A stretch of DNA of 64,000 nt from Elusimicrobiota bacterium (GTDB taxonomy: Bacteria; Elusimicrobiota; Elusimicrobia; UBA1565). A program made the position numbers and the translations under genes. Numbering within the stretch: the stretch's first letter is position 1; each line of letters opens with the position of its first letter. Below are positions 21,647 through 43,500 of this stretch, piece after piece. The stretch lies in assembly GCA_016218495.1 (NCBI GenBank), contig JACRDU010000162.1, positions 1 to 64,000 of the forward strand, in the 5' to 3' direction. The notes beneath the pieces were generated by a model. It did no database searches and had not been told where the DNA came from. It was given only the letters and a program-made list of their open reading frames with translations.

Positions 21647-22587
21647 AACTTCAGACGGATGGTCGTGTGGTAGGCCGCGCCGAGGTCCCCGAACGGGACC
21701 CAGGCGAAGTCCACGCCGAAGCGCCCGTAGGAAGCCCCGCCGCCCAGCGTCACGCCGCCGAAGCCTTCCGCATCGGTGTTCGCGCTGTTCCAGCCGCCGC
21801 GCAGGGCCGTCGTCATGGCTCCGAAGGTCCGCGCCGCTTCCGCCCCCAGCGAGACCTGCGGGGAATCGTCTCGCGGGAAGCGGACCTCGACCGAGGCCAG
21901 CAGCCCTTGCGCGGGGCGCAGGGCGCCGCCCGCATATAAGGCGAACGGCAGCGGGGCCGGGCTCGAGCCCAGGCTCAGGCGCCCGCCCCAGTTCCGCCAG
22001 CCGGCGCCGGCGCTCAGCCGCCGCCCGCGCCAGAGCGCTCCGCCGTCGACGGCCGGGGCCCGGGCGCTGGCCGAGTCCAGCCGCTGTTCGACGAGCTTCA
22101 GCGTCCCGCCCACCGCCAGGCCCGGCAGGGCGAGCCGGCCGTACGAGAGGGAGTAAGCGAAGTCGGAGGCGCCGAACGTCCCCTGCGCCGCGTCGGTCTC
22201 GACCAGGCCCCGCCGCTCGATGCCCGACGCAACCAAGGTCTTCACCGAGAAGGCGGCCACGCCCCAGGCGTTGCGCTTGAGGCGGGTGTCCCGCAGAGAC
22301 AGGAGCGGCACCGCCACCGCCCCGAAATCGTGGGCCAGGTCCTGGAAGTGGCTGTCATGGGTGGCCGCCGCTTCCAGCGATTCCAGGAAGGCCAGCCCGG
22401 CCGGGTTGTAATGGGCCGCGTGCAGGTCGTCGGCCAGGCCTCCGAAGGCGTCCCCCATGGCGGCCGGCCGGGCTCCGGCGGGGATCTTCAGGAAGGCCGC
22501 GGCCGAGGTGCCCTTGTCGGCCGCGCCGAACGCTCCCGCATCGGCCGCGGCGCAAGCCAGCAGCAGGCAGAGGAGCCGCGCCCTCAT
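21643..22587 (-). CDS. FadL/PorV-like outer-membrane beta-barrel (module 1 partner of the 3,539-aa CTD protein)
   Basis: Signal MRARLLCLLLACAAADA. FadL hatch-type motif FLKIPAGARPAAMGDAFGGLADDLHAAHYNPAGLAFL. C-terminal ...TTIRLKF. The ATG overlaps the giant-gene stop (ATGA). Confidence 0.65.
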   Translation of the reverse strand: MRARLLCLLLACAAADAGAFGAADKGTSAAAFLKIPAGARPAAMGDAFGGLADDLHAAHYNPAGLAFLESLEAAATHDSHFQDLAHDFGAVAVPLLSLRDTRLKRNAWGVAAFSVKTLVASGIERRGLVETDAAQGTFGASDFAYSLSYGRLALPGLAVGGTLKLVEQRLDSASARAPAVDGGALWRGRRLSAGAGWRNWGGRLSLGSSPAPLPFALYAGGALRPAQGLLASVEVRFPRDDSPQVSLGAEAARTFGAMTTALRGGWNSANTDAEGFGGVTLGGGASYGRFGVDFAWVPFGDLGAAYHTTIRLKF

Positions 22588-31500: not shown

Positions 31501-33203
31501 GCGGTCTTCGTACTGAGGCCCGGCAGCAGGACGGCGCCGGAAGAGCCGACGACGGACAGGCTGCCGAAGGAGCCCCAGCGCGCGCGCTGGACGGAAGTCC
31601 CGTCGAGGATATAACGGCTGCCGCCCGAGTCCACCCGGCCCAGTTGGGTCAGGTCCCCGCCGAAGCGCGCCGTCACGCCGGCCGAAACGGTCATCGTGGA
31701 CCCCGCCTTGACCGTCATGTTGCCCCGAATGCTGACCGAAGAGGCCAGCGTCAGCGACGCCCCGGTCTCCACGAGGAGATGGTTGAAGTCCATCCCCGGC
31801 AGGACGCTCAGGGACTTCCCGAACCCGGTCATGGTCACGGTACCGGCGGTGAGCGTGAAGGTCCCCCCGGTCTGGACGAAGTCCCCGCCCATCTTCATCT
31901 CGAGGCTCCCGACGCTGAGCGTGCCGCCCCGCATCTCGAAACGCCCCGTCACGCTCGAGAACAGGGTGTTCCAGACCAAGGTCCCCTGGTAGCCCGATTC
32001 CAGCGTCAGCGTGCCGATGGGCAGGTTCCCGAAATCCCAGGTGCACGATTTGGCGGAGGCGGTAGAGCCGAAGACGGCGTTCTCGAAGGCCTGCGGCGCG
32101 ACATTGCCCACCCAGTTCGCGGAGTCCTTGCAGTCGGACGACCCCGCCCCGGTCCAGACCTTGGGGTCGACGAAGGCGCTGCCGGCCCCTCCATTGCTTC
32201 CCGGGGGCGTACCAGGGCCTCCGGCTCCCGCTCCCGACGAGATGGCGATGGTGGCCAGGTTCAAGCCCGTCGTGACGATGGCCACCCGGCCCCCGCCGCC
32301 GCCGCCGCCGGCCGGGCCGGCGCCGCCGCTGCCGCCCGCGGCGCCCCGGGCCAGCATGGAACCCGTGCCGGAGAGCACGGCGGCGCGGAGCAGTATGGCC
32401 CCTCCGGAGCCCCCCCCGCCGGCCTGGGAGCAGCCCCCCGCGCCGGCCGTCCCGTCGGCCAGGAACGCCCCGTTGACCGTGGCCGTTCCGGCGGTGACCG
32501 TCAGGAGCCCTCCGCCCGCGCCCCCGAAGCACGGAGCCAGGCCCCCTCCTCCCCCGGAGCCCAGCGTCGCAGGCAGGCTCACGGTGCCGTAGGCGCTCCC
32601 TCCGTTGACCGCCAAGCCGCCGTTTCCGCCCGCTCCTCCGTGGCCGCCGCCGCCGGCGCCGCGGCCGCCGCTGCCCGACCCGCCGCCTCCCGGACCCGTG
32701 CCGGCCGAAATGGCGCTCCCGCCGGGGAAGCCCCGTCCGGTGGCCTGCACCGTGGCCCCCGCCTGCAGGTCGAAGACGTCGGCCGAGATGGTGACGGCCG
32801 TCGTCGACTGGCTGACGGGCCCGTACTGCTCGACGAGTCCGCCAGACGAGACGCTGAAGGTCCCCGCCCGCGCCGTATGGGTGGAGAGGAAGGAGAGCAC
32901 CGAACCGCTGGAGACGCGCAAAAGCCCGGCCACCAGCGTCCCCGTCGAAAGGCGCAGTTGGGCCGTCGAGGCTCCGCCCAGGTCCAGGGAGGCCGCGACG
33001 ACTGCGGCCGCCGCCGTGGCGTCCACCCGGGCCCCCGACGAGATGGTCACGTCCGAAGCGGCGCCCGGGACGCCGGCGGGGCTCCAGTTCGCCGGGTCCG
33101 CCCATGTCGCGCCGTCCCCCCCTCCGGTCCAGGACACGGGCGCCCCGGCGGCCGGGGCGGCCGCGAGGAAGGCGAGGGCGCACAGGGTGCGGCGCAGGGC
33201 CAT
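22584..33203 (-). CDS. giant (3,539 aa) secreted adhesin-like protein: Gly-rich beta-helical / autotransporter-passenger-like repeats, Ig/CarboxypepD_reg-like domains, T9SS-type C-terminal sorting domain
   Basis: Single uninterrupted ORF. Signal MALRRTLCALAFLAAAPAAGA. GGxGGxG-rich N-terminal 1.1 kaa with recurring TLxxxG(T/S)L beta-strand repeats. C-terminal NFPNPFD...WDGANDAGKDVASGLYIGQV...FFKMAVLK (Por_Secre_tail / FlgD-Ig-like). Confidence 0.85.
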   Translation of the reverse strand: MALRRTLCALAFLAAAPAAGAPVSWTGGGDGATWADPANWSPAGVPGAASDVTISSGARVDATAAAAVVAASLDLGGASTAQLRLSTGTLVAGLLRVSSGSVLSFLSTHTARAGTFSVSSGGLVEQYGPVSQSTTAVTISADVFDLQAGATVQATGRGFPGGSAISAGTGPGGGGSGSGGRGAGGGGHGGAGGNGGLAVNGGSAYGTVSLPATLGSGGGGGLAPCFGGAGGGLLTVTAGTATVNGAFLADGTAGAGGCSQAGGGGSGGAILLRAAVLSGTGSMLARGAAGGSGGAGPAGGGGGGGRVAIVTTGLNLATIAISSGAGAGGPGTPPGSNGGAGSAFVDPKVWTGAGSSDCKDSANWVGNVAPQAFENAVFGSTASAKSCTWDFGNLPIGTLTLESGYQGTLVWNTLFSSVTGRFEMRGGTLSVGSLEMKMGGDFVQTGGTFTLTAGTVTMTGFGKSLSVLPGMDFNHLLVETGASLTLASSVSIRGNMTVKAGSTMTVSAGVTARFGGDLTQLGRVDSGGSRYILDGTSVQRARWGSFGSLSVVGSSGAVLLPGLSTKTAVAGDLEVAAGSSLSAGLGRIELSGNWSSSGTFSASGATVAFVGPGAQSILAGATSFHYLELASPGGVTWATAVAVSSGVTFVDGLSDLGTATHSFRGALSASSGSFRGSSGTVLLDGTAAQRIAASSASVFGHLVSSNPAGVVLAADAAVEGPLELFSGAFDISGRVLRLGEGLYRRGGPGPTTASSTVRLEGASLQELSLAGAALDSLVVANSSAGAFLRDALVLRGTFTVLAGAVFDGGASSISVVGSSSGWVTAGAVYTSSSAHRVLWQSPAGGRVLVSSASSVTGQVDVRGAVRLSASMTLSTGAINLFPGGTLDSRGSTLTLREAGELYIGPGSAYLHDAGSWLVYSGSGTDRGALLSTGPVGNILFAADSATTTFRFGSLAVDGTLRAATGTVRLSTGARMTLGGDLVSAGGVFDFASVSSATLVMTGSALQRLEPGPQSALRGLEVASSSSVAVAPGTALRVRGALALTSGRLEASDASFGLEGDWAGAGGTFAAQRSTVSFLSASTQAYADKLHQAFNGLSAGPGARVFSASFDAAVFSATQPSAGITFSTSGLHVLADLRVNGTSTGTPVDLRSALPGTPFRLSVQTSTMSAAAVRDADATAGALLYANDGLTRDDGGNSGIEFRPTLLVIAPGETFVAGTGRTGTALVQTAGSSFTVTVHAVSNAFLPVRTSTAATTVHTGDTFDTEPSSAALSAGSAAFPVTLRVAEPAPATSLVWAQGAGAAGTAGSTVTVQAAAYSSLQVLVPGEAALPGSPAGRTGTSDFQILSRPFSVLVRAVDPFGNLISTLTDTVSISLVASASPTLPSPQALSGGSVTLSGLTIRATGLYTISAADASNAGVPAAQSSTFSVFSLSASSPVLSFSLPSGAALGTLSGRLAGGAQDSVSVTDVSVGVRDGSTGLWYDWASSFSAASTVFRSAGVTPFRGTDVEWILSFPDSVLTSGRDYFVLMRASNPAGLATLLGSTFTFNRGILQFSPADGEGTAAVLPVSTGACQAVVTTVTFTVGNSGLGRGGAVALRIPPGWTPLAGLTAAVPPPLGYAAVVSTSLAWSVAGSSEVLFAPPSIGSVTLGSDWLAVRVASAAPNLFKPGEDIRFYYTGYPPARAVGRHLLDVRSRSAQSGTLVAVASAPAVALAAGPASGLEFSDRAPIALGPLQGSATMQLFLTDGCGNPAVSTLAVVIGLSAGQPAASGFSRDLSAAFYAAGGAGIVSVTVSTGQSASPAFYMTTSTSGVDSESVRATATLAGSAVDALRTALIRASSVAPTAVSVDTGTLSAGATSVLLVPGAGSAVVRFSVTDPAVPWDVAVATEASFTTPLARSAGTGDASSALSYRWDAVACARACSFVAPGRYPVRVRAGGNPGTSVEVRVATSPFISGSLGTSGAGAFVSVEGPGAGYGSSATADSSGAFKVWGLHEGARYAVRASSFVMVQGVGVRLSTAVCSVAASTAGGAAGSPSFAVPGLMRVNASVPVLSPEEVFGSVLARGADGSAAASGVLHFPRGGASSDDGAVALGASASTWTVLALPPGVYTLEVEVARLGLSTRPAAVTVSTSATADVSLALDRRAALSGTAVLVTTSAYGTSVAVAAAPSGSSVPTRFASLSIPAASSGTVPSSGVFRLYGLTQGSWTLTARAPGLLPATTTLFVSGTADIGDGATGQGGPALTLGLGAVLRGTVTVQGDSRGLAGTGPAPDAASSNGFSVLVEAFEPRLLRRESGIVRLSTDAAQSAAQFQLGGLEPGLWDVRAVVSGFEKTPAGDESVRVTSAGASVGLVYARPSARGLVSVRIEPPASPCSCSADFARLALLHTDPFGAQTAVAVATALAGASFQFYPSSLTMTTPALASGINRWTFLDPATGRSASAALSLTPAATAEALLDLSGGSKTVSGLVRLTGPVRISSTGYSVTVSSLPGLVAFAARAPYCLLSSSSPVTLSAARVELVPVGDGSAGAPGPLARAGQSCASWSPSVAARTPAIAYVGALAADGSFLIRGVPPGYYRVRIPGDLDGSPGNGDEAAPVEASLAVTADTALDLRLGPGGSVQGALALPAGAPAKRRLDVMLSSLDGTELRRVSVEAAPGSPAAFAVNSLPDGEFVLAVADAGTPRAYGARPRLISLNGGAADAGTVSLEALGSIRLRLALERRSSSGTLELVPIDGSDRTLLPAELRIAAVASPWREGGFFPAQGAFCGPRGCARPDFDAAGTILIGGVFAGVYDVELVPGPGGGVDAAAAVRAGVRVAEGQTAELGVVKLRSAATVAGLLTDSSGGLPAGGVPVTARPSVGGLSSLRRPARTVRSDGAGRFSLGGLDPDVRFYDIVAAARPEDPSEPPPAYDETVIAGVDVLSTAALSIPLRAAPYSVSGRVLAADGGQLLGASDGAVAEPGAELYLYPEGRPPTEGPLGNTVSRTAPDGSFSLSGLSAGAYRLTVEALGCAPRTLPVRVTAASPSLGTITLQRAASLSGVLRRPDGGAPGEDEVRRVFAATADLSEVLEGGLLRDSAGRSAARYRVGGFVPGKTYRLIVLTADDEPYTPPEASALSFSTTTESRVLDVVVRPPAPRITAKSRRSGGAFLIEFNSSRPLRARTAADDDPARLVSTVSASGALSGLELSADRRKVLGIYTPGVSESSFTLRFAARTEERDPDAADSAEFLAVATAAFFSGVDGYQSTQLSNLTGGTLSIEGDPGRVALPKGAFILDASSSASIALRRTDELLLGARGLAAAGLSAEEATRTSLRFGTDAYPAGLVRAMAATPPDVRPAGPYYDVAVSSGLGSRLAKPARLSLGYAAGAEPARLNVYWYNEAANAFVLQQDVTGAPLELDALNKTVSLSVDHFSTFVLFDAAAAVISGNAYDGGVLSAYNFPNPFDLRLKTVTPIHGAAIQTVRGTLVRIAVPAGQGGDGRLLVFSAAGERVRTVDLGQLQGGRSYYQAWDGANDAGKDVASGLYIGQVKVGGRSAFFKMAVLK

Positions 33204-33206
33204 TGG

Positions 33207-33665
33207 CTACTTGGACTGCTGCCTCGACATGAACTTCCGGCGCTCGGCCAGCTTCTTCATCTCCTCGGCGAAGGCCGGGTTCTTCTTGAGCATGAAGGAG
33301 AAGTCGGCCGAGAGGAGGACGAACAGGCGCGTCGCCTCCTCGCAGACCACGCTGGCGTTGCGCGGGTCGCGCGACAGCAGGGCCATCTCGCCGAAGAAGT
33401 CCCCCGGCCCGAGGCGGGCCACGGTCTTGGAGAGGAAGATGTACCTCTTGAGCCGCACGGAGACCGCCCCGTCGTAGACGATGTAGAAGGCGTCCCCCGG
33501 TTCGCCCTGATGGAAGACCGTCTCCCCGGGCTTATAACGGCAGAGCATGATGTACTTCACTATCTGCTCGAGCTCCCCGACGTTGAGCGGCGCGAAGAAC
33601 TCGACCTTCCTCATCGCCCGGGCCAGGTGGCCGTAGTCCGCGTCCGACATCGCTACCTTCTCCAT
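33207..33665 (-). CDS. stand-alone cyclic-nucleotide-binding (cNMP/CAP-effector) domain protein, no DNA-binding domain
   Basis: 152 aa. cNMP-binding beta-roll motifs GETVFHQGEPGDAFYIVYDGAVSV and FGEMALLSRDPRNASVV. The stop is 3 nt before the giant-gene ATG. Confidence 0.8.
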   Translation of the reverse strand: MEKVAMSDADYGHLARAMRKVEFFAPLNVGELEQIVKYIMLCRYKPGETVFHQGEPGDAFYIVYDGAVSVRLKRYIFLSKTVARLGPGDFFGEMALLSRDPRNASVVCEEATRLFVLLSADFSFMLKKNPAFAEEMKKLAERRKFMSRQQSK

Positions 33666-33674
33666 TTTCGCCTC

Positions 33675-34892
33675 CTAACGCTCGAATGCGACCCCGAAGA
33701 GCAGCGAGGTCGCGTCGTGGTTGAACCGGTGGAATCCCTCGTAATGGTCGTTGGCGCGCGCCCATGAGCGCTCCACCCGGGCCATCAGGCCCAGGCCCGG
33801 AGCGAGCGGCCAACGCCCCTCCAGTGACAGCGCCCAGGTCTGTTCCAGCAATCCGACGCCGCTGTAGGCGCCGATGCCGTCCCGGGCCGAGCGGTGCGGC
33901 CAGCGGCGCCAGCCGTAGCGCAGCCCCCCCGCCAGGGAAGCCGGGGCGCGCGGGTCCCCCCAAGACGCGCCGAAGTCCGGCCCGAGCTTCCACGCCGCAT
34001 AGCTGTAGCAGCGCTCCTGGAAGCGCGCTCGGGCGGGGTCGAAGCAGGCCTGGTCGGAGACCGTGTCTTCGAACTGCACGCTGAGCCCGCCGTGCAGACG
34101 GCGGTTCGGGCGCGGCTCGCCCGAGGCCCTGAGCCCGGCCTCGGCGGAGGAGACCAGGTCCCCCCGGGTCGAGTCGCCGAGCGACCCGTCGGAGCGGACC
34201 AGCTTCTGGTGGAGGAAGCGCCGGACCTGCAGCCCGGCCTTCAGGTCCAAGGCCAAGCCCTTGGGCAGGGGGAGCAAGAGGCCCGCGCTCAGCAGGTGGG
34301 CGTCGAAGTCGAGGACCCCCGAGCCGGCCAGCTCGCGGGCCAGCGGCCGGCCGCGCGGGTCGAGCGGGGCGGAGGATTCCAGCGAGTTGAAGTTCGGGAA
34401 GAAGGTGCGCGACAGCGCGTAGCCGGCCCAGAGCCGCCGCCCGGCCGACAGGTCCCATTCCAGGTCCACGCCCCCGTCGACGGTGTGGCTGTCGAAGAGC
34501 CCGGACAGCCAGTCCTCGTCCTTGGTCTCCCGCAGCAGGCGCATGCGCCAGCCGGCCCGGGGCTTGAGGAGCCAGCGGCCCCGAGCGGGGGCGTAGACGG
34601 CTTTCAGCGAAACACGGTGCTCCATCGCCTCAGAGAACAAGGTCGTCCCGCCCGCCGTGTCGAGCGCCGATTCGACCCCGCTGTAGGAACCGCCGAGGAC
34701 GGGGAAGAAGGTCCAGCGGGGCCCCAGCGGCACGGCCGCCGCGGCCGAGCCCGATGCGCTGCCGGAGAAGGCCCCCGGCCTGCCGTCGGTCTGCAGGCGG
34801 CCCCCCAGGAAGCGCGCGGAAATGACGGTCTCCAGCGCCCGCGCGGGGCCCGGGAAGGCGAGCAGGGCGCAGAGCAGGGCCCGGACGCTCAC
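33675..34892 (-). CDS. outer-membrane beta-barrel protein, unknown family (paralog of 62142..63383). GTG start overlapping the upstream stop.
   Basis: Signal VSVRALLCALLAFPGPARA. Alignable to the 62142 ORF (LRETKDEDWLSGLFDSHTV vs LKETRDETWGKGLFDTQTV; FFPNFNSLESS vs RFPNFKSLESK). The longer 688-aa ORF form has a junk N-terminus overlapping the upstream gene. Confidence 0.6.
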   Translation of the reverse strand: MSVRALLCALLAFPGPARALETVISARFLGGRLQTDGRPGAFSGSASGSAAAAVPLGPRWTFFPVLGGSYSGVESALDTAGGTTLFSEAMEHRVSLKAVYAPARGRWLLKPRAGWRMRLLRETKDEDWLSGLFDSHTVDGGVDLEWDLSAGRRLWAGYALSRTFFPNFNSLESSAPLDPRGRPLARELAGSGVLDFDAHLLSAGLLLPLPKGLALDLKAGLQVRRFLHQKLVRSDGSLGDSTRGDLVSSAEAGLRASGEPRPNRRLHGGLSVQFEDTVSDQACFDPARARFQERCYSYAAWKLGPDFGASWGDPRAPASLAGGLRYGWRRWPHRSARDGIGAYSGVGLLEQTWALSLEGRWPLAPGLGLMARVERSWARANDHYEGFHRFNHDATSLLFGVAFER

Positions 34893-36385
34893 GGCAGGGC
34901 TCCCGTCATGAAGGCCAGGGCCGGGTCGAGGCGCAGCTCGATGGTCCGCCCCGAGAAGAGCGAGGAGGAAACGCTCTGCTCCAAGCCGGCCCCCAGCAGG
35001 ACGGCGCGGAAGGCCGCCGCGCCCGAGCCCGCCGGCAGCGCGGCGGAAGCGACCTCGCCGCCGCAGAGCCCGCGCGAGACCGTGGACAGCGAAGAGCCTT
35101 CGGCCCAGGACGAGCTCAAGACCTGCAGCCGAGCGCTGGGAGCGGGATAGGTGACCGAGACCGCTCGCGCGGCAAGCTGGGCGCCGTTCATCAGGGCGTG
35201 GGCGGCGGTGAGGGCCCCTCCCGTGAAGGGGTCGGTGACGGTGGATGGGACGGCGTCGCCGTTCACCAGGATGTTCGCGCCCGTCCAGCCGGCCGCCAGG
35301 CGGCCGTTTACATAGACCCCCCACCGGTCGAAGAGGGAACGCCAGGCCGAAGCGCCGGCCGCCGAGCGGAAGTCCCCCGTCACCGGGTCGAAGACGGAGG
35401 AGACGTCGTCGGCGCCGTCGGCGTTGGCGTTGAGGTCGACCAGGTGTCCGCCGTCGGCCGTCTCCATCAGGACGTCGGGGCCGTTGGAGCGCGCCGACTC
35501 GTAGGCGGTCAGGGTCAGGGCGGGGGCCGCGCCCGCCGTGCCGGCCAGCGCCCGCAGGGCGCCCGAGATGTCCCCCGGCACGGCCGCGCTGAAGGTGCCC
35601 AGGTGGTAGAGGTAGTCGGTCCGGCCTTCCCGGCCGTTCACGGCGACCAGCTCGAGCTGGTCGGCCCGGGGTCGCCTGACCCAGGACTCGGCGCGCACCC
35701 GCGCTCCCCGAGAATCCATCGCCGTGCGGCCTTCCTCCCATTCCAGGCGCCGCAAGGCCTCGGCCCCGGAGGCATAGAGGCCTTCCCGGAAGGCGTCGGA
35801 TTCCAGCTCCGCCCGGATGCGCTCGCGCAGGCCTTCGCGGCGGAGGGCCGCGGCGGCCGGCATCCTGACGGGGACCTCCAGCCCGCGCAGGTCGATGCGC
35901 ACGCTCTCCCCGGAGCGCAGCAGGAGTTGGTGCCCGCGGTTGTCCTCCACCCCCAGCTCCCCCTCCGCCGACTCCACCGTGGTCCGGCCTCCGGCCAGGA
36001 CGCTGACCCTGAACTCCCCGCCCCGCACGGTCAGGGCCGCGGCCGGCGTGCGTACCTGCACCACACGGCGCCCCACATCGGCGAAGCGGAAGACGGACAC
36101 GCCGATCTCCACGCGGGCCAGGAAGCGCTCACCCCCGACGTCCTCCAAGGTGAGGACCGTGTCCTCCTGCAGCAGGGCGGTGTCGGCCCCGCCCAGCTTG
36201 AGGAAGGCGGACGATTGACGGCCCGTCCTGAGGGCGGCGCCGGGGCCCAGGGCGGACGGGATCTTCTCCAAAGTCGCCCAAGGGGCGTCCAAAGCGGGCC
36301 TGAGCTGGAGCAGACCGGACGCTCCGGCGACAGACGGCCCCGCCGGCGCGGCAGCCGCCGCCGGGCGCGAGAATAGGGCCAGCAC
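34889..36385 (-). CDS. secreted FecR-domain protein (paralog of the partial gene at 63391..64000)
   Basis: GTG start (a possible ATT start 6 codons upstream would give a better signal peptide). FecR-like block FLKLGGADTALLQEDTVLTLEDVGGERFLARVEIGVSVFRF...VRTPAAALTVRGGEFRV. C-terminal TADGGHLVDLNANADGADDVSSVFDPVTGDF matches the 63391 ORF. Confidence 0.6.
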   Translation of the reverse strand: MLALFSRPAAAAAPAGPSVAGASGLLQLRPALDAPWATLEKIPSALGPGAALRTGRQSSAFLKLGGADTALLQEDTVLTLEDVGGERFLARVEIGVSVFRFADVGRRVVQVRTPAAALTVRGGEFRVSVLAGGRTTVESAEGELGVEDNRGHQLLLRSGESVRIDLRGLEVPVRMPAAAALRREGLRERIRAELESDAFREGLYASGAEALRRLEWEEGRTAMDSRGARVRAESWVRRPRADQLELVAVNGREGRTDYLYHLGTFSAAVPGDISGALRALAGTAGAAPALTLTAYESARSNGPDVLMETADGGHLVDLNANADGADDVSSVFDPVTGDFRSAAGASAWRSLFDRWGVYVNGRLAAGWTGANILVNGDAVPSTVTDPFTGGALTAAHALMNGAQLAARAVSVTYPAPSARLQVLSSSWAEGSSLSTVSRGLCGGEVASAALPAGSGAAAFRAVLLGAGLEQSVSSSLFSGRTIELRLDPALAFMTGALP

Positions 36386-36463
36386 CAGGGCTGGGAGGAG
36401 GGCTCTTACCCTAATAATGCTCTAAGGGTACGCGCCCCGCGCGAAGCGCGCAATACCTCAACG

Positions 36464-36537
36464 GTGTCAGACTTTCGGAACTTTCGAAAGTTCGAAACTC
36501 TGTCGGAACTTTCGAAAGTTCCGAAAGTCTGACACCA
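36464..36537. repeat. AT-rich nested inverted repeat. 30-bp perfect stem GGTGTCAGACTTTCGGAACTTTCGAAAGTT...AACTTTCGAAAGTTCCGAAAGTCTGACACC containing two copies of the 18-bp palindrome GGAACTTTCGAAAGTTC(C/G). Candidate terminator and/or operator.
   Basis: Read directly. Lies immediately after the TAA stop of the 36540 gene and about 80-150 bp upstream of the 34889..36385 gene. Flanked by small GC hairpins (GCGCGAAGCGCGC). Confidence 0.8.
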
Positions 36538-36539
36538 GT

Positions 36540-37502
36540 TTAGAATTTCAGGAGGAGGGAGAAGCGGAAGGTGTTGCCGAGGTCGCCGTAGGGGACCCAG
36601 GCGAAGTCGAAGCCGGCGCGGTAGAACTGCACGCCGGCGCCCATCGTGAGGAGGTTCTGCCCGTCGTTGTCCATGCGGTGGGTGTTGACGCCGGCCCGCA
36701 GCGCGCCGGAGACGTTCGCCGTGAACGGGTGCAGGTACTCGACCCCGCTGCCCACGAACAGGTCGGTGTCGCGGTACTTTGTCACGTCCAACGAGGCCCG
36801 GACCCGCTTGGTCAGCTGGGTGCCGGAGCCGACGACGAAGCCGCGCGGGAGCGGGTCGGAGACTCCCGCGAAGGAGATCTCGCTGCCGATGTTCTTGACC
36901 ACGGCGGAGAGCCAGACCGGCCGCCCCCACACGCTGGGCAAGGTGAACAGGCCCCCGAAATCGGTGGCGAAGGCAGAGGCCGAGTAGCTGTCGATGGTCT
37001 CGTGGATGAGCTTGCCGGTGACGCCCAGGCTCAGCCGCGGAGACAGCCGGTAGGCGTAGGAGAGGTTGTAGGAGTAGTCCCCGGCCCCGAAGCTGCCGGT
37101 CGGCGAGCGCGTGTCGGCGGTGTGGCGCTCGATGTCGGAGATGGAGAGGTTGTAGATGGCCGCTCCGATGGCGTGCTTGGAGTGGTCGGCCTGGCGGCCC
37201 ATCGGGTAGACGAAGCCGGCGAACTCGTAGCTGATGCCCTGGAAGTGCTCGGCATGCGCCGCGGCCAGCTGGCTGGTCGACAGGCGGGTCATGGCCGCCG
37301 GGTTGTAGTACACCGCGTAGACGTCGTCGGCCAGAGCCGAATACGCCTCGCCCATCGCGCCGGCGCGGGAGCCCGCGCCGAGCTTGAGGAACTGGGCGGC
37401 GCTGGTGCCCGCGTTGGGGTTGATGGCCAGGGCCGGGCGCGCGGCGGCGCAGACGAGCCCGAGGGCCGCCAGCAGCGCGAAGAGTCGGACCCGGTTGGTC
37501 AC
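36540..37502 (-). CDS. FadL/PorV-like outer-membrane beta-barrel (module 2 partner of the 8,185-aa CTD protein)
   Basis: Signal MTNRVRLFALLAALGLVCAAARPALA. FadL hatch-type motif FLKLGAGSRAGAMGEAYSALADDVYAVYYNPAAM. C-terminal FRFSLLLKF. ATGA overlap with the giant-gene stop. Paralog of 21643..22587. Confidence 0.65.
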   Translation of the reverse strand: MTNRVRLFALLAALGLVCAAARPALAINPNAGTSAAQFLKLGAGSRAGAMGEAYSALADDVYAVYYNPAAMTRLSTSQLAAAHAEHFQGISYEFAGFVYPMGRQADHSKHAIGAAIYNLSISDIERHTADTRSPTGSFGAGDYSYNLSYAYRLSPRLSLGVTGKLIHETIDSYSASAFATDFGGLFTLPSVWGRPVWLSAVVKNIGSEISFAGVSDPLPRGFVVGSGTQLTKRVRASLDVTKYRDTDLFVGSGVEYLHPFTANVSGALRAGVNTHRMDNDGQNLLTMGAGVQFYRAGFDFAWVPYGDLGNTFRFSLLLKF

Positions 37503-40500
37503 AGGCCGCTCCCCTTGATGACGGCCATCTTGTGGTAGACGCTCTGGCCGTTCACCGTGTACTCCAGGATGTATACGCCCGAGGCCACCGGCCGGCCCGC
37601 GGCGTTCGTGCAGTCCCAGAAATCGTAGTTGTGCGTGCCGCCGTTGGCGGTCTTGTGGAACTCGTCGACCAGCTCGCCGGCGACGTTGTAGATGCGGAAG
37701 CGGTGGTCGAGCGGCGTGACGGCGCCGGGCGCGGCGTAGTGGATGACGGTGCCGACGCCGGTCAGCGCGCCCGCCGCGCAGGAGCCCTCGGCCACGTTGC
37801 AGTTGATGGTGCGGCTGCGGCAGTCGAACGGGTTCGGGAAGTTGAAGGCGATGGGCTTCTCGTCGCGGAAGGTGGCCGCCCCGACCAGCCCCGGCGCCCC
37901 GTTGAGGACGACGAAGGTGGAGAAGTGGTCGACCGAGACCGTGATGGTCTTGTTGATGGTGTCGATGCGCTTGTTGTTGGTCTCCTCGACCGGCGCCTGG
38001 CCGTTCGAGATGCTCCAGATCTTCAAAGCGGAGACGGAGGTCGTCGTCGCCAGCGAGGTGTCGTAGGGCAAGGTCAGGTCGACGGGCTTGGTGAGCTGGG
38101 CCCGGATGCCCAGCGGCAGGAAGACCTCGTAGAAGGAGCTGAACGGGTTGGCCTTGAAGGCGTTGTTGGTCGCGGTGGAAGCCGCCAGCGGGCCGTAGGC
38201 CGAGGCCTGCAGGGCCTGGATGCGGGCCGGCACGTAGCCGAGCTGGGCCATGGACAGCTGGGCCGCCTGGTTGGCGTCGAGCGAGCCCTGGACGCCGACC
38301 TGGACCTTGTTCTTGTCGCCCAGCTTGCCCTGGCAGTTATAGTTCGTGTCCCCGGCCGAGCAGCCCTCGAAGGAGCCGGGGGCGAAGTTCAGGCCGAACT
38401 TCTCCGAGTCGCCCTGGCCCTCGACGCGCTCGGAGGTCTGCAGGTTGACCTGGCCGCCCTGCGAGTTGTTGACCGGCTTGTTGGCCTGGGAGGTGATGAC
38501 GCGGTTCGAGCCGTTCTGCGACACCGCGGCGGCGAAGTCGAAGACCTTGAGCAGGGTGAAGTTCTCGCCCGTGGTCGGGTCGACGGTGGCCATGACGGCG
38601 TTGAGCTTGATGGAGAAGTTCTTCTCGGAGGCCGAGCCCGCCCGGTACACGACCGTGATTTCCTTGCGGTTGGACTCGATCTTCTTGTCCGAGCCGCCCA
38701 GCAGGGCGCCCTGGCCGTTCGGCGCGGTGTAGTTCGTCCCGTTGGAGGCGAAGCTCGAGACGCTGACGATGGTGTCGACGTCGTCGTCGGAGGCCAGGAG
38801 CTTGCGCAGCGGCTGCGAGCAGGCGATCTTGACCTGGAACTGCCCGTTGCCGAGCGCCTTCTCCCTGGAGTCCGCGTAGCAGTCCGGCGCCGTGCGGCTG
38901 TAGGTCAGGTTGACGGTCTTGGTCGTCGTGCTCTCGGCGGCCGAGAAGGATATCCCCTGGCCTTCCGCCGGGTAGACGACGTCGAGGTCGTCGCGGTGCG
39001 GCGGGAGGATGACCACGTTGTAGCTGACGCCCGGCTCGAAGCCGGAGATGGAGTAGCTGTTCACCGTGCGCGCCGTCTGGTCGATGGAGACCGAGCCGAT
39101 GATGAACTTGGAGAAGTCGCTGTTGGCGGCGGCCACGCCGCCGACCTCCTCGGTGCTGGGCGAGGTGCCGTTGGGCAGGAGGATGCGGCCCTGCAGCAGG
39201 CCGCCGCGGGCCAGGGTCAGGCCGGGGGCGCACAGGCCGACCACGGTGGTCGTCGAGATGCAGAAGCTGCCGGCATTGACGGTGACGGTGGCCGTGGCCA
39301 CCCCGAAGCCCAGGCTGACCGCGCGGATGGTGTAGCTGCCCACGGCGACGCCCGGGAAGCTGAAGCTGCCGTCGGAGAGAGTGTCCACCTCGGTGTCGCC
39401 CAGCGGGTTGTCCAGCGACACGACCCCGAGGGGCTGGAGGAAGACGGCCGCGGCAGGATAGCCCTGGTTCTCGCCGAACGGATAGGCGAGCGGGGACCCG
39501 TCGTCGGTCAGCACCTGGCCGGTCACGGACCCCAGCAGGGCGTTCAACTGGATGTTCAAAGGAGTGGTGGACACCGCCAGGCGGATGAGGTCGACCTGGG
39601 CGTAGCGTACGCCCGAAGCGGCCTGGTTGCCGTCGCGCGGCGCGACGGTGACGTCGTACTGCGGCGATACGAAGGTGGAGACCCAGAGGGTGAATTCGCC
39701 GTTGGCGTTGGAGAAGGTCTCCACCACCAGGGACACGTCGCCGTGCGAAGGCTTCGCCACCAGCTTGATGTTGCCCAGGGCCGTGGTGGTGGAGGCGGCG
39801 TCCACCAGAGTGCCCTTGATGGAGGTGCCCTGGTTCATCGACAGGGTACCGACGTCCTTGCGCTCGAAGGGCTGCAGGGACAGGCCGCCCAGCTCGACGG
39901 GCGAGTAGTTCTGCGACCCCTGGGCCAGGAAGGCCAGGTCCCACTTGTCCTGGAAGACCTTCAGGTCGTAGGGGGTGTCGGGGAAAAGCGGGCCGACCAG
40001 GAAGGTCCCGTCGGCGCGGATGGGGCGGGCGGAGACGCTGGAGGCCGCCTGGGCGAAGCCGCCCTCCACCCACGGGTTCGCCGTGGCGGTGATGCGCAGG
40101 TTCGGCGGCAGGACCTTGGCGTTGCGCTCGGTGAAGAGCTCGCCCGAGGCGGCGTCCTGGAGCTTGCCGGTCAGGTAGCCCGCCCGGCGCATGAGGACGT
40201 CCTGGCTGACCAGGTTCGCCGCCAGGCCGCCCGGTGACTGCGCCGAATCGGGGAAGCGGATGGGGCGGCCCAGGTACTTGGGCTCGGAGGCCGCGTCCTC
40301 GACGCTCAGGGTGTAGAATTCGCCGGCCGGCAGGCCTTCCAGGCGATAGCTGGTGGAGGCGGCCGTTACGCCCGCGGCCGAGTTGCCCAAGGCCACGGTG
40401 GTGGAGCGGACCACCTCGAGGCGGCGGTTGCGCAGGGTCAGACGCAGCGTCCGGAAGTCCTGGACACCGGCGGCCAGGGTCAGGACTCCGGTCACCGAGT

Positions 40501-43500
40501 AGCCGTCGGTGAGCGTGAAGGTGGAGGCCTGGACCGAGGCGGTGCCGACAGCCACGATCTGGGCCAGGCGCGGGACGACGACGGCGCAGGTGGTGCAGGC
40601 GGTGCCGGCGGCGTCCATGCGGCTGCGGATGTCGGCCGTCCGGACCAGGTAGACGCCGGGCGGCACGTTGCGGATGGTGTAGGTGCCGGCGCTGGTCAGA
40701 TAACCCACGCGGTCGGTGGCCGGGTTGAAGGAAGTGGAGGTGCCGACCCCGAACTCCTGGCGGATGGCGACGACGCGGGCCAGGGAGTTGGTGGAGGTCA
40801 GCACATCGCCGAGGTCCACAGTGGCCGGGTCGACGGGCACGTCCGCCCCCGTGCGGCCTTTCACGGGCAGGTGGCCGGCGTTCGCCACCAGCTTGGGATT
40901 GGTGTTGAAGTTCGTGTTGCTGATCTGGTTGAGGACGGCCCCGGAGATGGCGAAGGTCTGGTCGGTCAGGTCGACGAAGACCGTCGTCGTGGAGCCGTTG
41001 ACGATGGAGACGCGCTTCCTCACCGAGCGTCCCGTCGTCTTGTAGACGAAGGTCACATCGACGGTCTCGGTGTTGTTGCCGGTGAGGAGGAACGTCCCGG
41101 TGCTGGCCGTCGTGCTCCAGCCGTCGAGCGCGGTCGCGACCTCCTCGAAGCGCTTGCCGACCCTCTCGGGGCGGACGGCGGCGATGGTCTCGCCGAAAAG
41201 GGTCACGTTGCCGAAGTCGGTGTTCCCGTTGGGGATGAGGATGGTGCCGGAGACCACGCCGCTGGCCGCCTCGAAGCTGAAGGCCACATCGCCCTGGCCG
41301 GTGGTGGTCGACAGCGTCACCTCGCGCGAGAACCCGCCGGGCACCTCGAACTCCGTGTTGCCGCGGCTCTCGATGCCGGCGAAGACCTGGTACTTGATGC
41401 CGGGCTCCAGGCCGGTGAGCTGGACGGCCACCGAGGACAGCGTGGCGGACACCGGGATGTCGACGGAGCGGTAGGCCTGGTTCGGGGTGTTCGGCGCCCA
41501 GGCGTTGAGATGGATGCGCACGGAGGGCCCGCCGGGCTCGAGGGCCGGGAAGAGGCTGGTGTCCCCGGTCACCGACAGGGTGGCGGTCAGGACCGACGTG
41601 TTCGACGCCGGGAAGGAGGAGAAGTTGACCACCGTATCGACGCCGGAGAGGATGGTCGCCGAGTCGATGAAGACGGCCTTGTAGCCCTGGGTATTCGCCG
41701 TCAGGCGGTAGGAGCCGGGCTTGAGGCCGTCGACCCGGTAAGTGTCCGAGGCCACCCCGACGGGCAGTTCCACGCCGCCGAAACCGCCCTCGATGCGGGT
41801 CTCGGTGGAAATCGGCACGGCGCTGACCGAGACGAAGGCCCCGGTGGTATTGCTGCCGTTGGGCAAGGCCACGGTGCCGGTGAATGCTCCGCGGCGGCTG
41901 AAGACGGGCAAGGTCAGGCGCGTCTCGCCGGAGCCGGCCACGAACACGGACTGGCTCACGTCTTCGAAGCCCTCCAGGCGCGCCCGGACGGTGTAGGTGT
42001 CCGAGCCGACCTGGAAGCGCAGGACGGTCTTGGTGACGAAGGCGTTCACCGAGTTGTCGTACTGTCCGCCGTCGTCGAAGGTGGTGGTCCCGGCCTCGAG
42101 GCGCATCGGCCCGTTGCGGGAGAAGGTGCCGCTGGCGTTGGAAATCTGCAGCTCGCCCCACAGGGTGAAGGCCTGGGTGGAGGTGACCGGGATGTTGGGC
42201 ACGACGATCAAGGACGGCGCGCGGCTCATCAGGACGCGCACCGGGGCCGTGGAGGACTGGAAGGAGGCCGTGGAGAGCTCGACCTGGGAGTTGAACGGGG
42301 CCGTAGAGCGCACGGTGGAATCCGCGTTGACGGTGACCGAGGCGCGTCCCACCAAGTAGCCGTCCTTGGTGATGTTGAGGCGGTAGCCGCCGGCCGACAG
42401 GCCGTTGAGCGAGGCCGCGCCCTGGGCGTCGGTCAGCAGAGTACCGCCGCCGAACTGGCCGAAGTACTCGATGTTCACACCCGACAGCGGCAAGTTCGGC
42501 GTCACGCCGGAGTCGAAGACCTTGAGCGACAGGGCGGCGGACTGGACCGTGATGCGCAGGGAGTCGTTGCTGATGCCGCCCGCCTCGATGCGCACATAGT
42601 AGACGCCCTGGCCCACGCGCAGGCCGGCATAGTCGCGGCCGTCCCAGGCAATCTGTCCGCGGGCGGGCTGGCCGCTGCCGGAGAAGAAGGCCACCGGGTT
42701 CGGAGCGGCATCGGCCTTATAGGGGGTCGACGCGATGGACACCGTCCAGAACAGCGACTGGTCCGCGATATTGAAGTTGATGAAGGCCAGGTTGGGCGAG
42801 AGCGGGTTGCCGTCGGGCCGGATGGTGACCGTGGTCTGCGCCACCGACGGGTTGGGCTGAGTGGACACGCGCACGCCGGTCAGCGGGTCGACGGCCAGAG
42901 CGAAGACGCCGGCATAGCCCGTGGTGCCGGGAGCAAGGAGGTTGGAGGCGATTTCAACGGCCAGGTCGCCGGCCGTGGCCGCCCGGAGCCGGTAGGTGGC
43001 GCTGCTGGTCCCGGCGGCGAAGGTGACCACGGCGGTCGAGTCGAACACCCCGGCGATGCTGGAGGAGATCCTCAGCCCGGGCTCGTCGACGAAGGCGGCG
43101 GTCTGGTAGCTGAAGCGCTTGGCGCGCAGCACCACGTTGGCGACCGAGGCCACCGGGGTCCGGTTGCCGCACAGGTCGACGGCTTCGAGCAGCAGGCGTT
43201 GGGAGGTGGCGCCTTGGATGAGGCCGATGAACGGCTCGGCGGAGTGGACCGCCGCAGCGGCCCCCAGCGTCACATCGACGATAGGATTGCCCGAGAACAG
43301 CGGGGCCGGAGGCGCGGTCTGGGTGGAGGCCGAGCCGAAGAAGAACTGCGAGGGGCCCGTGAAGCAGGGCACGGCGGCGTTATAGAGGAACTGGACGGTC
43401 GAACCGGCCGCCAGCGGGGTACCGCCCACGCGGACGATGATGCCGGGCGCGCCGCCCGGGGCGGGCTGGGTGGAGACGGCCGGCCCGGCCGGGCTGAGGG

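What the first reader, a model, noticed from the sequence alone, without database searches (positions are those of the whole stretch)
36540..37502. FadL/PorV-like barrels translationally coupled to each giant CTD gene (second copy at 21643..22587)
Both ~315-aa proteins start, after a signal peptide, with F-L-K-(I/L)-x-A-G-(A/S)-R-x-(A/G)-A-M-G-(D/E)-A-(F/Y)-x-x-L-A-D-D-x-x-A-x-(H/Y)-Y-N-P-A-(G/A). This is the N-terminal hatch signature of the FadL/TodX/OmpP1 family, to which T9SS PorV belongs. Both end in the aromatic beta-signal F-x-(L/R)-K-F. Each ATG overlaps the TGA/TAG of the giant gene (ATGA), which implies stoichiometric co-expression with its cargo. They are shorter than FadL (~295 mature aa) and mutually paralogous.
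Basis: partly seen in the sequence, partly recalled or inferred. Interest (0 to 1): 0.7.

Follow-up and report, generated by a model that had tools for sequence, protein, structure and literature searches.

The report
PorV-like barrels paired with giant adhesins
In this Elusimicrobia genome, each of two giant surface-protein genes is followed by an overlapping gene for a small outer-membrane barrel of the PorV/PorQ family, which probably holds the giant protein's tail; this resembles the cargo-carrier pairs of the Bacteroidota type IX secretion system but lies in a phylum where that system has not been described.

Summary
Two minus-strand ORFs (36540..37502, 320 aa; 21643..22587, 314 aa) are 38% identical. 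Each overlaps by 4 nt the stop of a giant gene (8185 aa and 3539 aa). Corrections: copy 1 starts GTG (GTGA), both stops are TGA, and the C-termini are ...LKF.

Both proteins pass NCBIfam NF033709 (PorV/PorQ family) but fail the PorV, PorQ, PorV2, PorP/SprF and FadL models. The AF2 model matches F. johnsoniae PorV best, ahead of FadL/TodX. GenBank already names copy 1 "PorV/PorQ family protein" (Elusimicrobia MAG).

New here:
- In 69 of 73 Elusimicrobiota loci the barrel directly follows a very large ORF with a conserved FlgD-Ig/T9SS-type-A-like C-terminal domain. 54 of the 69 have an ATGA/GTGA overlap.
- Barrel clades track the C-terminal tail classes 69/69.
- Many pairs sit in a cassette: FecR-domain protein, unannotated ~16-strand barrel, giant protein, PorV-like barrel. 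The window holds two such cassettes in tandem.

Best reading (0.6): a cargo-dedicated carrier or anchor for the C-terminal domain, like PorQ-PorZ or SprF-SprB. I could not test whether a SprA/PorKLMN core exists. Verdict: new variant of a known kind; interest 0.58.

The parts
63391..64000 (-). 3' part of a FecR-like gene, the first gene of cassette 1. Its reading frame is open to the window end.
   Evidence: The translation stays open to base 63999 and aligns with the C-terminal third of the FecR-like proteins.
62142..63383 (-). 413-aa outer-membrane beta-barrel of an unannotated family found here only in Elusimicrobia; the second gene of cassette 1.
37499..62056 (-). Giant protein 1: 8185 aa, with an N-terminal signal peptide, beta-sandwich repeats and a C-terminal sorting-type domain.
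   Evidence: ORF. Pfam finds DUF2141, fn3, CarboxypepD_reg, FlgD_ig, PEGA and SpaA in the C-terminal half only.
37502..37861 (-). C-terminal domain (CTD) of giant 1, of the tail class ending ...FFKMAVIKGSGL.
   Evidence: TIGR04183 scores 27.6 bits (cut-off 23). It also hits the C-termini of the PorZ and PorU models.
37509..37516 (-). Shine-Dalgarno-like AAGGGGAG, embedded in the K-G-S codons of the CTD tail, 6 nt before the barrel's GTG start.
   Evidence: Sequence. In the 26 loci of the GSGL class the Ser codon is AGC in 26/26 and the Gly codon is GGG in 20/26.
37499..37502 (-). GTGA overlap: the barrel 1 start codon GTG overlaps the giant 1 stop codon TGA.
36540..37502 (-). Barrel 1: a 320-aa PorV/PorQ-family outer-membrane barrel.
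   Evidence: NF033709 scores 163.1 bits. The AF2 model matches PorV at TMq 0.74. It is 100% identical to a GenBank protein named 'PorV/PorQ family protein [Elusimicrobia bacterium]'.
34889..36385 (-). FecR-domain protein, 498 aa; the first gene of cassette 2.
   Evidence: Pfam FecR scores 25.1 bits (cut-off 24). Orthologues occupy the same position in many loci.
33675..34892 (-). 405-aa outer-membrane barrel, a paralogue of the 413-aa one. It overlaps the FecR gene's stop by 4 nt.
   Evidence: 30% identity, E = 2e-46. Translation.
33207..33665 (-). 152-aa cyclic-nucleotide-binding protein lying inside cassette 2.
   Evidence: Pfam cNMP_binding scores 77.7 bits. It is conserved at this position in L001, L003, L006, L008-L010, L012, L014 and L045.
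22584..33203 (-). Giant protein 2: 3539 aa, with a signal peptide and a C-terminal FlgD-Ig-type domain.
   Evidence: ORF. FlgD_ig scores 33 bits (cut-off 27).
22587..22946 (-). CTD of giant 2, of the tail class ending ...FFKMAVLK.
22584..22587 (-). ATGA overlap: the barrel 2 start codon ATG overlaps the giant 2 stop codon TGA.
21643..22587 (-). Barrel 2: a 314-aa PorV/PorQ-family outer-membrane barrel.
   Evidence: NF033709 scores 107.6 bits. It is 38% identical to barrel 1.

Best explanation
Each ~315-aa protein is a PorV/PorQ-family outer-membrane beta-barrel: 14 strands, plugged by an N-terminal hatch. I propose that it is the dedicated partner of the giant secreted protein encoded immediately upstream.

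Proposed mechanism:
1. Both proteins are exported by Sec; each has its own signal peptide.
2. The barrel is inserted into the outer membrane.
3. Its conserved extracellular face binds the giant protein's conserved C-terminal Ig-like domain (FlgD-Ig / T9SS-type-A-like).
4. The barrel thereby carries the giant beta-sandwich-repeat protein to the cell surface, anchors it there, or both.

Known precedents are PorV (binds type A C-terminal domains), PorQ (retains PorZ), PorV (retains PorU), and the PorP/SprF barrels (serve their genetically linked type B cargos, e.g. SprF-SprB).

The 4-nt start/stop overlap, with a Shine-Dalgarno-like sequence written into the last codons of the cargo, couples synthesis of the barrel to that of its cargo.

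Shown: family membership, the fold, the conserved gene pairing and overlap, and co-inheritance of barrel clades with tail classes.
Inferred: physical binding, surface anchoring, the stoichiometry, and which channel moves the cargo across the outer membrane.
For: Family and fold:
- NF033709 is passed by both copies.
- The only PDB sequence relative is PorV, E = 2e-21.
- The best structural matches are PorV chains taken from translocon complexes, including the RemA-CTD-bound one, 8gl6_F.

Gene pairing:
- In 69 of 73 Elusimicrobiota loci with at least 300 codons of sequence upstream, the barrel directly follows an ORF that is at least 1000 aa long or runs off the locus. 54 of the 69 have an ATGA/GTGA overlap, and 59 of the 69 lie within 20 nt.
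- The same arrangement appears in gene calls made by others.

The C-terminal domains (CTDs):
- The C-termini of those upstream ORFs form one conserved domain.
- It hits the CTD portions of the PorU model (61/69), the PorZ model (58/69) and TIGR04183 (47/69).
- It keeps the conserved Lys in the last strand (K111 and K116). In type A CTDs such a Lys contacts PorV (PMC10994853).

Co-inheritance:
- Barrel clusters coincide with the tail classes GSGL, VIK and KDxxYx. The nearest barrel neighbour shares the tail class in 69 of 69 cases. Mantel r = 0.71; 0 of 2000 permutations reached it.

Conserved surface:
- Positions conserved across both major classes are concentrated on the predicted extracellular half and loops (45/135) and the hatch (18/52). 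The periplasmic half has only 8/107. Fisher p = 7e-7.
- That is unusual for an outer-membrane protein and fits a conserved external ligand.

Coupling:
- AAGGGGAGC is fixed at the nucleotide level in the KGSGL tail.

Precedents:
- PMC9143113, PMC12618676 and PMC10202324.
Against: - No binding data exist, and no complex could be modelled here.
- Co-inheritance of barrel and tail class could reflect linkage alone.
- Only 6 class-specific positions were found, and they are not enriched in the loops. There is therefore no positive sign of cognate specificity; the barrels may bind any CTD of this type.
- The barrels lack about 80 residues that F. johnsoniae PorV has (PorV residues 255-333 are unaligned). 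The mode of loop binding may therefore differ.
- The extracellular/periplasmic assignment rests on a DSSP reading of an AF2 model, not on coordinates.
- In T9SS, binding of the CTD to PorV depends heavily on SprA (PMC10994853). No SprA is known in this phylum.
Confidence: 0.6

Rival explanations
1. Self-contained secretion cassette, independent of T9SS. The four conserved genes form a minimal cargo-specific export and anchoring system. The unannotated 16-strand barrel would be the outer-membrane conduit, the PorV-like barrel the receptor or anchor for the C-terminal domain, and the FecR-domain protein a periplasmic adaptor or plug.
For: - The cassette order FecR, then ~410-aa outer-membrane protein, then giant, then barrel recurs in L052, L055, L065 (twice), L068, L071, L080, L084, L086 and L087. 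It occurs twice in the window.
- In L086 it starts directly after housekeeping genes (dnaG, rpoD).
- The genes are tightly packed, with 4-nt overlaps.
- No T9SS core gene is present in the 64-kb window.
- T9SS has been reported only in Bacteroidota (PMC4793230).
Against: - FecR and the outer-membrane protein were not found next to the complete giants of the KDPKYR class (L029, L035, L036, L037), nor in L044 and L085. They are therefore not universal partners.
- A 16-strand barrel is narrow for a cargo made of folded Ig-like repeats.
- Absence of SprA or PorKLMN from these genomes was not tested.
Confidence: 0.25
2. Specialised shuttles of a conventional T9SS that is encoded elsewhere in the genome. 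The barrels would dock on a SprA-like translocon, exactly as PorV or the PorP/SprF proteins do, each serving one giant cargo.
For: - Sequence and fold are closest to PorV.
- The C-terminal domains grade into the T9SS type A sorting domains of Endomicrobiia, Zixibacteria, Ignavibacteria and Calditrichaeota.
- Shuttle genes linked to their cargo genes are the rule for type B cargos (PMC12618676).
Against: - No T9SS has been reported in Elusimicrobia in the searchable literature. Surveys place T9SS only in Bacteroidota (PMC4793230).
- No core component lies in the window or in the flanks that were inspected.
- The barrels lack about 80 residues of PorV.
Confidence: 0.2
3. The barrel itself is the translocation pore for the giant protein. 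This would be a split autotransporter or two-partner-like system in which the C-terminal domain docks and the passenger is threaded through the barrel, or through a BAM-barrel hybrid.
For: - The barrel gene lies immediately 3' of the cargo's C-terminus, echoing autotransporter architecture.
- Synthesis of the two is coupled.
Against: - The 14-strand barrel is plugged by a conserved N-terminal hatch with an invariant NPA.
- No member of the PorV/FadL family is known to be a protein channel.
- The barrel has its own signal peptide, so it is not a fused passenger-barrel protein.
Confidence: 0.07
4. An ordinary FadL/TodX-type importer of hydrophobic substrates that merely happens to be linked to the giant genes.
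For: - There is a weak Toluene_X match to the hatch (22.5 bits).
- The NPA motif is conserved.
- FadL and TodX are second-tier structural matches.
Against: - The match is below Pfam's threshold.
- The family profile finds no FadL or TodX among PDB sequences.
- PorV is the better structural match.
- The 69-of-73 linkage to CTD-bearing giants, held across identities down to 35%, is not coincidental.
Confidence: 0.03

Closest known systems
PorV (LptO), the type A cargo carrier of the Bacteroidota type IX secretion system (F. johnsoniae PorV, PDB 6H3I / 8GL6 chain F)
   Same: - Same NCBIfam superfamily, NF033709.
- It is the only PDB relative found by sequence (E = 2e-21) and the best structural match (TMq 0.74).
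- It shares the N-terminal hatch motif.
- Its partner proteins carry a C-terminal Ig-like domain with a conserved Lys in the last strand.
   Different: - The window proteins are not orthologues. NF033710 scores 72.5 and 32.8 bits against a cut-off of 250.
- They are about 80-90 residues shorter.
- They occur as several copies per genome, each coupled to one cargo gene. PorV is a single housekeeping carrier for all type A cargos.
- The host phylum has no described SprA translocon.
PorP/SprF-family shuttles genetically linked to type B CTD cargos (SprF-SprB; PorP-PG1035)
   Same: - The logic is the same: a small PorV-like barrel is encoded next to a very large adhesin that carries a C-terminal sorting domain.
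- The barrel is needed for secretion or surface anchoring of that particular cargo (PMC9143113, PMC12618676).
   Different: - The barrel family differs: TIGR03519 scores 16.3 bits against a cut-off of 90.55.
- The C-terminal domain here is of the FlgD-Ig / type-A-like kind, not type B (PF13585/TIGR04131).
- The system lies in Elusimicrobiota, not Bacteroidota.
- The conserved 4-nt overlap and the accompanying FecR protein and 16-strand barrel are not features described for SprF/PorP loci.
PorQ-PorZ and PorV-PorU pairs of the T9SS attachment complex
   Same: - A PorV/PorQ-family barrel permanently retains a protein through that protein's uncleaved C-terminal domain.
- The C-terminal domains here hit the C-terminal portions of the PorZ model (58/69) and the PorU model (61/69).
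   Different: - NF033711 (PorQ) scores 98.9 and 52.2 bits against a cut-off of 220.
- The cargos are giant repeat proteins with no sortase or LPS-delivery domains.
FadL/TodX/OmpP1 hydrophobic-substrate channels and the Treponema UPF0164 family
   Same: - 14-strand barrel with an N-terminal hatch and the NPA motif.
- PF03687 (UPF0164) is just passed: 28.5 and 21.8 bits against a cut-off of 21.4.
   Different: - PF03349 is below threshold.
- The structural match is poorer than to PorV.
- FadL-type transporters are not known to be linked to genes that carry a C-terminal sorting domain.

Membership tests
PorV/PorQ family (NCBIfam NF033709) | Full-length HMM match above the curated cut-off of 90 bits. 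| tested here: met
   Barrel 1 scores 163.1 bits (residues 33-320 on profile positions 1-326). Barrel 2 scores 107.6 bits.
PorV/PorQ family (NCBIfam NF033709) | FadL-like 14-strand outer-membrane barrel with an N-terminal plug, a signal peptide and a C-terminal aromatic residue. | tested here: met
   The AF2 model has pLDDT 86.9 and pTM 0.80. DSSP gives 15 strand segments, which makes 14 strands if 194-206 and 208-217 form one kinked strand. PorV is the best Foldseek match. The signal peptides and the terminal ...LKF are read directly from the sequence.
PorV sensu stricto (NF033710), PorQ (NF033711), PorV2 (NF052325) | Equivalog HMM score above the cut-off (250, 220 and 325 bits respectively). 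| tested here: not met
   PorV: 72.5 and 32.8 bits. PorQ: 98.9 and 52.2 bits. PorV2: 72.5 and 41.8 bits.
T9SS carrier or anchor function | Physical binding of a cargo's C-terminal domain by the barrel's extracellular loops. | not testable with these tools
   Only indirect evidence is available: the conserved extracellular face and the conserved pairing.
Type IX secretion system (whole system) | Presence of SprA/Sov, PorK/L/M/N (GldKLMN) and PorU/PorZ in the same genome. | not tested
   None is present in the 64-kb window. Whole genomes could not be scanned. The literature reports T9SS only in Bacteroidota (PMC4793230).
T9SS type A CTD (TIGR04183 / PF18962), tested on the giant proteins | C-terminal domain HMM match above the cut-off. 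| tested here: inconclusive
   Giant 1 scores 25.4-27.6 bits against a cut-off of 23, so it passes narrowly. Giant 2 has no TIGR04183 hit at E <= 0.01, but FlgD_ig scores 33 bits against a cut-off of 27. 47 of 69 related C-terminal domains hit TIGR04183 at E <= 0.01.
T9SS type A CTD (TIGR04183 / PF18962), tested on the giant proteins | N-terminal Sec signal plus a conserved Lys in the last beta-strand of the C-terminal domain. | tested here: met
   The signal peptides are read. K111 and K116 are nearly invariant within ...FFKMAVIK. The role of this Lys is described in PMC10994853.
FadL/TodX/OmpP1 (Pfam PF03349) | HMM match above the gathering score of 29.7 bits. | tested here: not met
   Barrel 1 scores 22.5 bits, on the hatch only (residues 40-83). 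Barrel 2 has no hit.
FadL/TodX/OmpP1 (Pfam PF03349) | Conserved NPA motif in the hatch. | tested here: met
   Y66, N67 and P68 are invariant and A69 is at least 90% conserved in 32 homologues. The NPA motif as a FadL-family hallmark is from my own knowledge; the PDB titles 2r4o, 2r4l and 2r4n agree.
FadL/TodX/OmpP1 (Pfam PF03349) | Lateral opening or S3 kink used for substrate exit. | not tested
PorP/SprF family (TIGR03519) | HMM match above the cut-off of 90.55 bits. | tested here: not met
   Barrel 1 scores 16.3 bits, E = 0.005. Barrel 2 has no hit.

The most novel reading that the evidence does not exclude
Elusimicrobiota may carry a modular way of exporting or anchoring proteins through their C-terminal domain, either independent of T9SS or ancestral to it.

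Each giant adhesin would bring its own kit: a FecR-like periplasmic protein, an unannotated ~16-strand barrel acting as conduit, and a PorV-like barrel acting as receptor and anchor for the C-terminal domain.

This would show that the pairing of a C-terminal domain with a PorV-type barrel predates, or exists apart from, the SprA/PorKLMN machine. It would also contradict the textbook statement that cargos carrying a T9SS-type C-terminal domain are restricted to Bacteroidota.
Probability: 0.25. Interest if true: 0.85.

Novelty: new variant of a known kind. Interest (0 to 1): 0.58.

Why it matters
The T9SS field treats C-terminal sorting domains and PorV-type carriers as specific to Bacteroidota (PMC10202324, PMC4793230).

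Here the same two parts occur as tightly coupled, repeatedly duplicated gene pairs throughout a distant phylum. They serve the largest proteins in those genomes, 2,000 to 9,000 aa.

If the barrels bind the C-terminal domains, three things follow:
- It would give a simple two-gene model for studying recognition of a sorting domain by its carrier without the 20-component T9SS.
- It would offer an explanation for how Elusimicrobia display their giant surface proteins.
- It would provide a genomic rule for finding cargos: look immediately 5' of a PorV/PorQ-family gene.

If no SprA-type translocon exists in these genomes, the accompanying unannotated outer-membrane barrel family becomes a candidate for a new outer-membrane protein conduit.

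Tried and rejected
- The exact-sequence contig look-up for barrel 1 (P0001) found nothing on record. Context was taken from homologues instead.
- The afdb50 fold library was not available.
- I considered modelling the barrel-CTD complex by fusing the two chains or by using paired alignments.
- I searched for class-specific (cognate-specificity) positions in the barrel loops. Only 6 were found, and they are not enriched in the loops. Cognate specificity is therefore not supported.
- I considered that frameshifting or readthrough might make the barrel a fused C-terminal part of the giant protein. I rejected this because the barrel has its own conserved signal peptide and start codon.
- The strong hairpin 3' of barrel 1 is not conserved in orthologous loci.
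- The 312-aa and 520-aa genes inside the L087 cassette are related neither to the barrel nor to FecR.
- Literature searches found nothing describing this arrangement. The terms were Elusimicrobia with T9SS, PorV or giant genes, and 'PorV-like'.
- The CTD-profile protein search returned mainly short fragments from contig ends. It gave source names but no useful length distribution.
Full report
OBSERVATION

Both ORFs are real and lie on the minus strand. Barrel 1 is 36540..37502 (320 aa). Barrel 2 is 21643..22587 (314 aa, counted from the ATG that yields a signal peptide).

The giant genes end at 37499 (8185 aa) and 22584 (3539 aa). Barrel 1 starts with GTG inside ...CTGTGA..., a GTGA overlap. 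Barrel 2 starts with ATG inside ...AAATGA.... Both stops are TGA.

The C-termini are ...LLLKF and ...IRLKF. The two proteins are 38% identical, E = 1e-51.

WHAT THE BARRELS ARE

Sequence.
- Both pass the curated NCBIfam model NF033709, 'PorV/PorQ family protein': 163.1 and 107.6 bits against a cut-off of 90, over the full length.
- Both fall far below the equivalog cut-offs for PorV, PorQ and PorV2, and below PorP/SprF.
- In Pfam, PorV (PF19572) is passed by copy 1 and UPF0164 (Treponema FadL-like) by both. Toluene_X/FadL is sub-threshold and matches the hatch only.
- A profile of 32 homologues finds just one distinct PDB sequence, F. johnsoniae PorV, at E = 2e-21.

Structure.
- An AF2 model built on that alignment has pLDDT 86.9 and pTM 0.80.
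- Its best Foldseek matches are the PorV chains of the SprA translocon complexes: 8gl6_F at TMq 0.74 and 6h3i_F at 0.69. FadL and TodX follow at about 0.55-0.61.
- DSSP gives 15 strand segments. Segments 194-206 and 208-217 are separated by a single residue. Counting them as one kinked strand gives 14 strands, with short periplasmic turns, consistent with the family.
- The hatch motif, including Y-N-P-A, is invariant across homologues.

The window comes from an Elusimicrobia MAG. Barrel 1 is 100% identical to a GenBank protein already named 'PorV/PorQ family protein [Elusimicrobia bacterium]'. The family assignment itself is therefore not new.

THE CARGO

Both giants begin with signal peptides. 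Giant 1 contains only beta-sandwich repeat families (DUF2141, fn3, CarboxypepD_reg, FlgD_ig, PEGA, SpaA), all in its C-terminal half. Its N-terminal half has no Pfam hit. That is an adhesin-like make-up.

Its last ~75 residues pass TIGR04183, the T9SS type A sorting domain, at 25.4-27.6 bits against a cut-off of 23. Giant 2's tail passes FlgD_ig at 33 bits against 27, but not TIGR04183.

IS THE PAIRING MORE THAN LOCAL COINCIDENCE?

A scan of one genome per species found at least 555 relatives of the barrel. The 80 best are from Elusimicrobiota, apart from two loci of one MAG labelled only 'bacterium'.

For 73 loci with at least 300 codons of sequence upstream:
- 69 have, directly upstream and on the same strand, an ORF that is either at least 1000 aa long or runs off the fetched 10 kb. 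Many exceed 3300 aa.
- Of those 69, 54 allow an ATGA/GTGA overlap and 59 lie within 20 nt.

Independent gene calls show the same arrangement, with upstream genes of 8947, 7520 and 6826 aa that overlap the barrel gene by 4 nt.

The locus GC content ranges from 37% to 73%, so the long ORFs are not a high-GC artefact.

The last 120 residues of these upstream ORFs align as one domain: NFPNPFD..GTMIR..IxIYNVAGELVR..WDGxN..G..VASGVYIG..FFKMAVIK. Scanned one by one, 61 of 69 hit the C-terminal portion of the PorU model, 58 of 69 that of PorZ, 56 of 69 FlgD, and 47 of 69 TIGR04183.

More distant relatives of this domain are named 'T9SS type A sorting domain-containing protein' in Endomicrobiia, Zixibacteria, Ignavibacteria and Calditrichaeota.

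CO-INHERITANCE AND COUPLING

The C-terminal tails fall into three classes...KGSGL (26 loci)...V/I-K (34) and ...K-D-x-x-Y-x (9). Barrel clusters coincide with these classes. The nearest barrel neighbour has the same tail class in 69 of 69 cases. Mantel r = 0.71, and 0 of 2000 permutations reached it.

The window holds one pair of the GSGL class and one of the VIK class. The pairs have therefore been duplicated and inherited as units.

In the GSGL class the DNA ATCAAGGGGAGCGGCCTGTGA is almost fixed. The Ser codon is AGC in 26 of 26 loci and the Gly codon is GGG in 20 of 26, even in GC-rich genomes. This places a Shine-Dalgarno-like AAGGGGAG 6 nt before the barrel's start codon. Translational coupling thus appears to be under selection. 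Exact 1:1 stoichiometry remains an inference.

CONSERVED FACE

I assigned topology from the model: the C-terminus is periplasmic, and the connections alternate between turns and loops. Positions conserved in both major classes are distributed as follows:
- extracellular halves and loops: 45 of 135;
- hatch: 18 of 52;
- periplasmic halves and turns: 8 of 107 (Fisher p = 7e-7).

Outer-membrane proteins usually vary most on the outside, so this pattern points to a conserved external ligand. The equally conserved C-terminal domain is the obvious candidate. In F. johnsoniae, C-terminal domains bind the extracellular loops of PorV, and a conserved Lys contacts PorV (PMC10994853). The domains here keep nearly invariant Lys residues in the last strand.

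Only 6 class-specific positions were found, and they are not in the loops. I therefore have no evidence for cognate specificity beyond genetic linkage.

WIDER LOCUS

The gene map was drawn from codon-position GC and family scans. It shows two tandem cassettes on the minus strand:
- Cassette 1: FecR-like gene (63391..64000, running off the window), 413-aa outer-membrane protein (62142..63383), giant 1, barrel 1.
- Cassette 2: FecR-domain protein (34889..36385), 405-aa outer-membrane protein (33675..34892), cNMP-binding protein (33207..33665), giant 2, barrel 2.

The two outer-membrane proteins are paralogues, 30% identical, E = 2e-46. Their family has no NCBIfam match and only one sub-threshold Pfam hit. 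Every named member is a 'hypothetical protein' from Elusimicrobia.

The order FecR, outer-membrane protein, giant, barrel recurs in many loci. In L086 it starts directly after dnaG and rpoD.

The order is not universal. Complete giants of the KDPKYR class (L029, L035-L037), and those in L044 and L085, lack these two genes nearby. The invariant core is therefore the giant-barrel pair, and FecR plus the outer-membrane protein is a frequent accessory.

MECHANISM

The best-supported reading (confidence 0.6) is that each barrel is a cargo-dedicated carrier or anchor for the C-terminal domain. The precedents are:
- PorV, which binds type A C-terminal domains.
- PorQ, which retains PorZ, and PorV, which retains PorU.
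- The PorP/SprF barrels, which are genetically linked to their type B cargos and required for them; SprF-SprB is one such pair (PMC9143113, PMC12618676, PMC10202324).

How the cargo crosses the outer membrane is open. There are three candidates:
- a conventional T9SS encoded elsewhere (0.2);
- the accompanying 16-strand barrel, making a self-contained cassette (0.25);
- the PorV-like barrel itself (0.07), which is unlikely because it is plugged.

A plain FadL-type transporter is very unlikely (0.03).

KNOWN OR NEW

The family name is already in GenBank. The principle of a PorV-like barrel encoded next to a giant cargo with a C-terminal sorting domain is established for PorP/SprF in Bacteroidota.

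I found no description of the following in the searchable literature:
- the systematic, translationally coupled pairing of PorV/PorQ-family barrels with type-A-like domains on giant proteins across Elusimicrobiota;
- the co-diversification of barrel clades and tail classes;
- the accompanying FecR protein and unannotated barrel.

Reviews state that proteins with T9SS C-terminal domains, and T9SS itself, are restricted to Bacteroidota (PMC10202324, PMC4793230).

The barrel family is large: 3220 clusters at 50% identity with E <= 1e-30, and 26066 with E <= 0.001. Members sampled around rank 150 that carry an organism name are still Elusimicrobiota or unclassified 'bacterium'.

VERDICT

This is a new variant of a known kind, of moderate to good interest. 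The single most decisive missing piece is whether these genomes encode a SprA/PorKLMN core.

Noticed in passing
   Followed up: yes
window 36461..36536 (minus strand), between barrel 1 and the FecR gene: A very stable, AT-rich hairpin with a stem of about 33 bp lies immediately 3' of the barrel 1 stop codon. It reads GGTGTCAGACTTTCGGAACTTTCGAAAG...CTTTCGAAAGTTCCGAAAGTCTGACACC. For the 146-nt region the free energy is -81 kcal/mol with z = -10.7. It has no T-run and is not conserved in orthologous loci. It could be a terminator or mRNA-stabilising element, or a small mobile palindrome.
   Followed up: partly
window 37509..37516; the same position in 26 loci of the GSGL class: The protein tail K-G-S-G-L of the giant genes is conserved at the nucleotide level (AAG GGG AGC GGC CTG). 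It encodes a Shine-Dalgarno-like sequence for the downstream barrel. This looks like a dual coding and ribosome-binding constraint.
   Followed up: yes
window 33207..33665 (minus) and 1115..2833 (minus): A 152-aa cyclic-nucleotide-binding protein sits inside cassette 2 and is conserved there in many genomes. The window also encodes an adenylate/guanylate cyclase fused to an HD domain. This hints at cyclic-nucleotide control of the giant-protein cassette.
   Followed up: no
window 17061..21646 (plus strand): A plus-strand operon converges on barrel 2. It encodes a TPR protein, a PDZ plus right-handed beta-helix (NosD-like) protein, and a second, unrelated FecR-domain protein (455 aa, with weak Lsa33 and LapA-retention-module hits). 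Its last gene overlaps the barrel 2 gene by 4 nt (21643..21646).
   Followed up: partly
L034/L063 and L052/L054 (contig JAJAPZ010000001.1, Ca. Obscuribacterium magneticum): The same loci were returned twice, from mirrored coordinates at the two ends of one 184.8-kb contig. This suggests an inverted-duplicate (palindromic) assembly artefact in that record.
   Followed up: no
P0028, P0388, P0416, P0458, P0463 (homologues of 450-660 aa): Some members of the barrel family carry extra segments of 150-350 residues, mostly C-terminal. P0028 carries TPR repeats.
   Followed up: no
window 7016..9403 (plus strand): A single 795-aa protein combines a lytic transglycosylase (SLT) domain with a Peptidase_M74 (MepA-like murein endopeptidase) domain.
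   Followed up: no
L087 11255-13787: In one genome two extra genes (520 aa and 312 aa, no Pfam hits) are inserted between the 410-aa outer-membrane protein and a 3918-aa giant that contains a beta-helix. Neither is related to the barrel or to FecR.
   Followed up: partly
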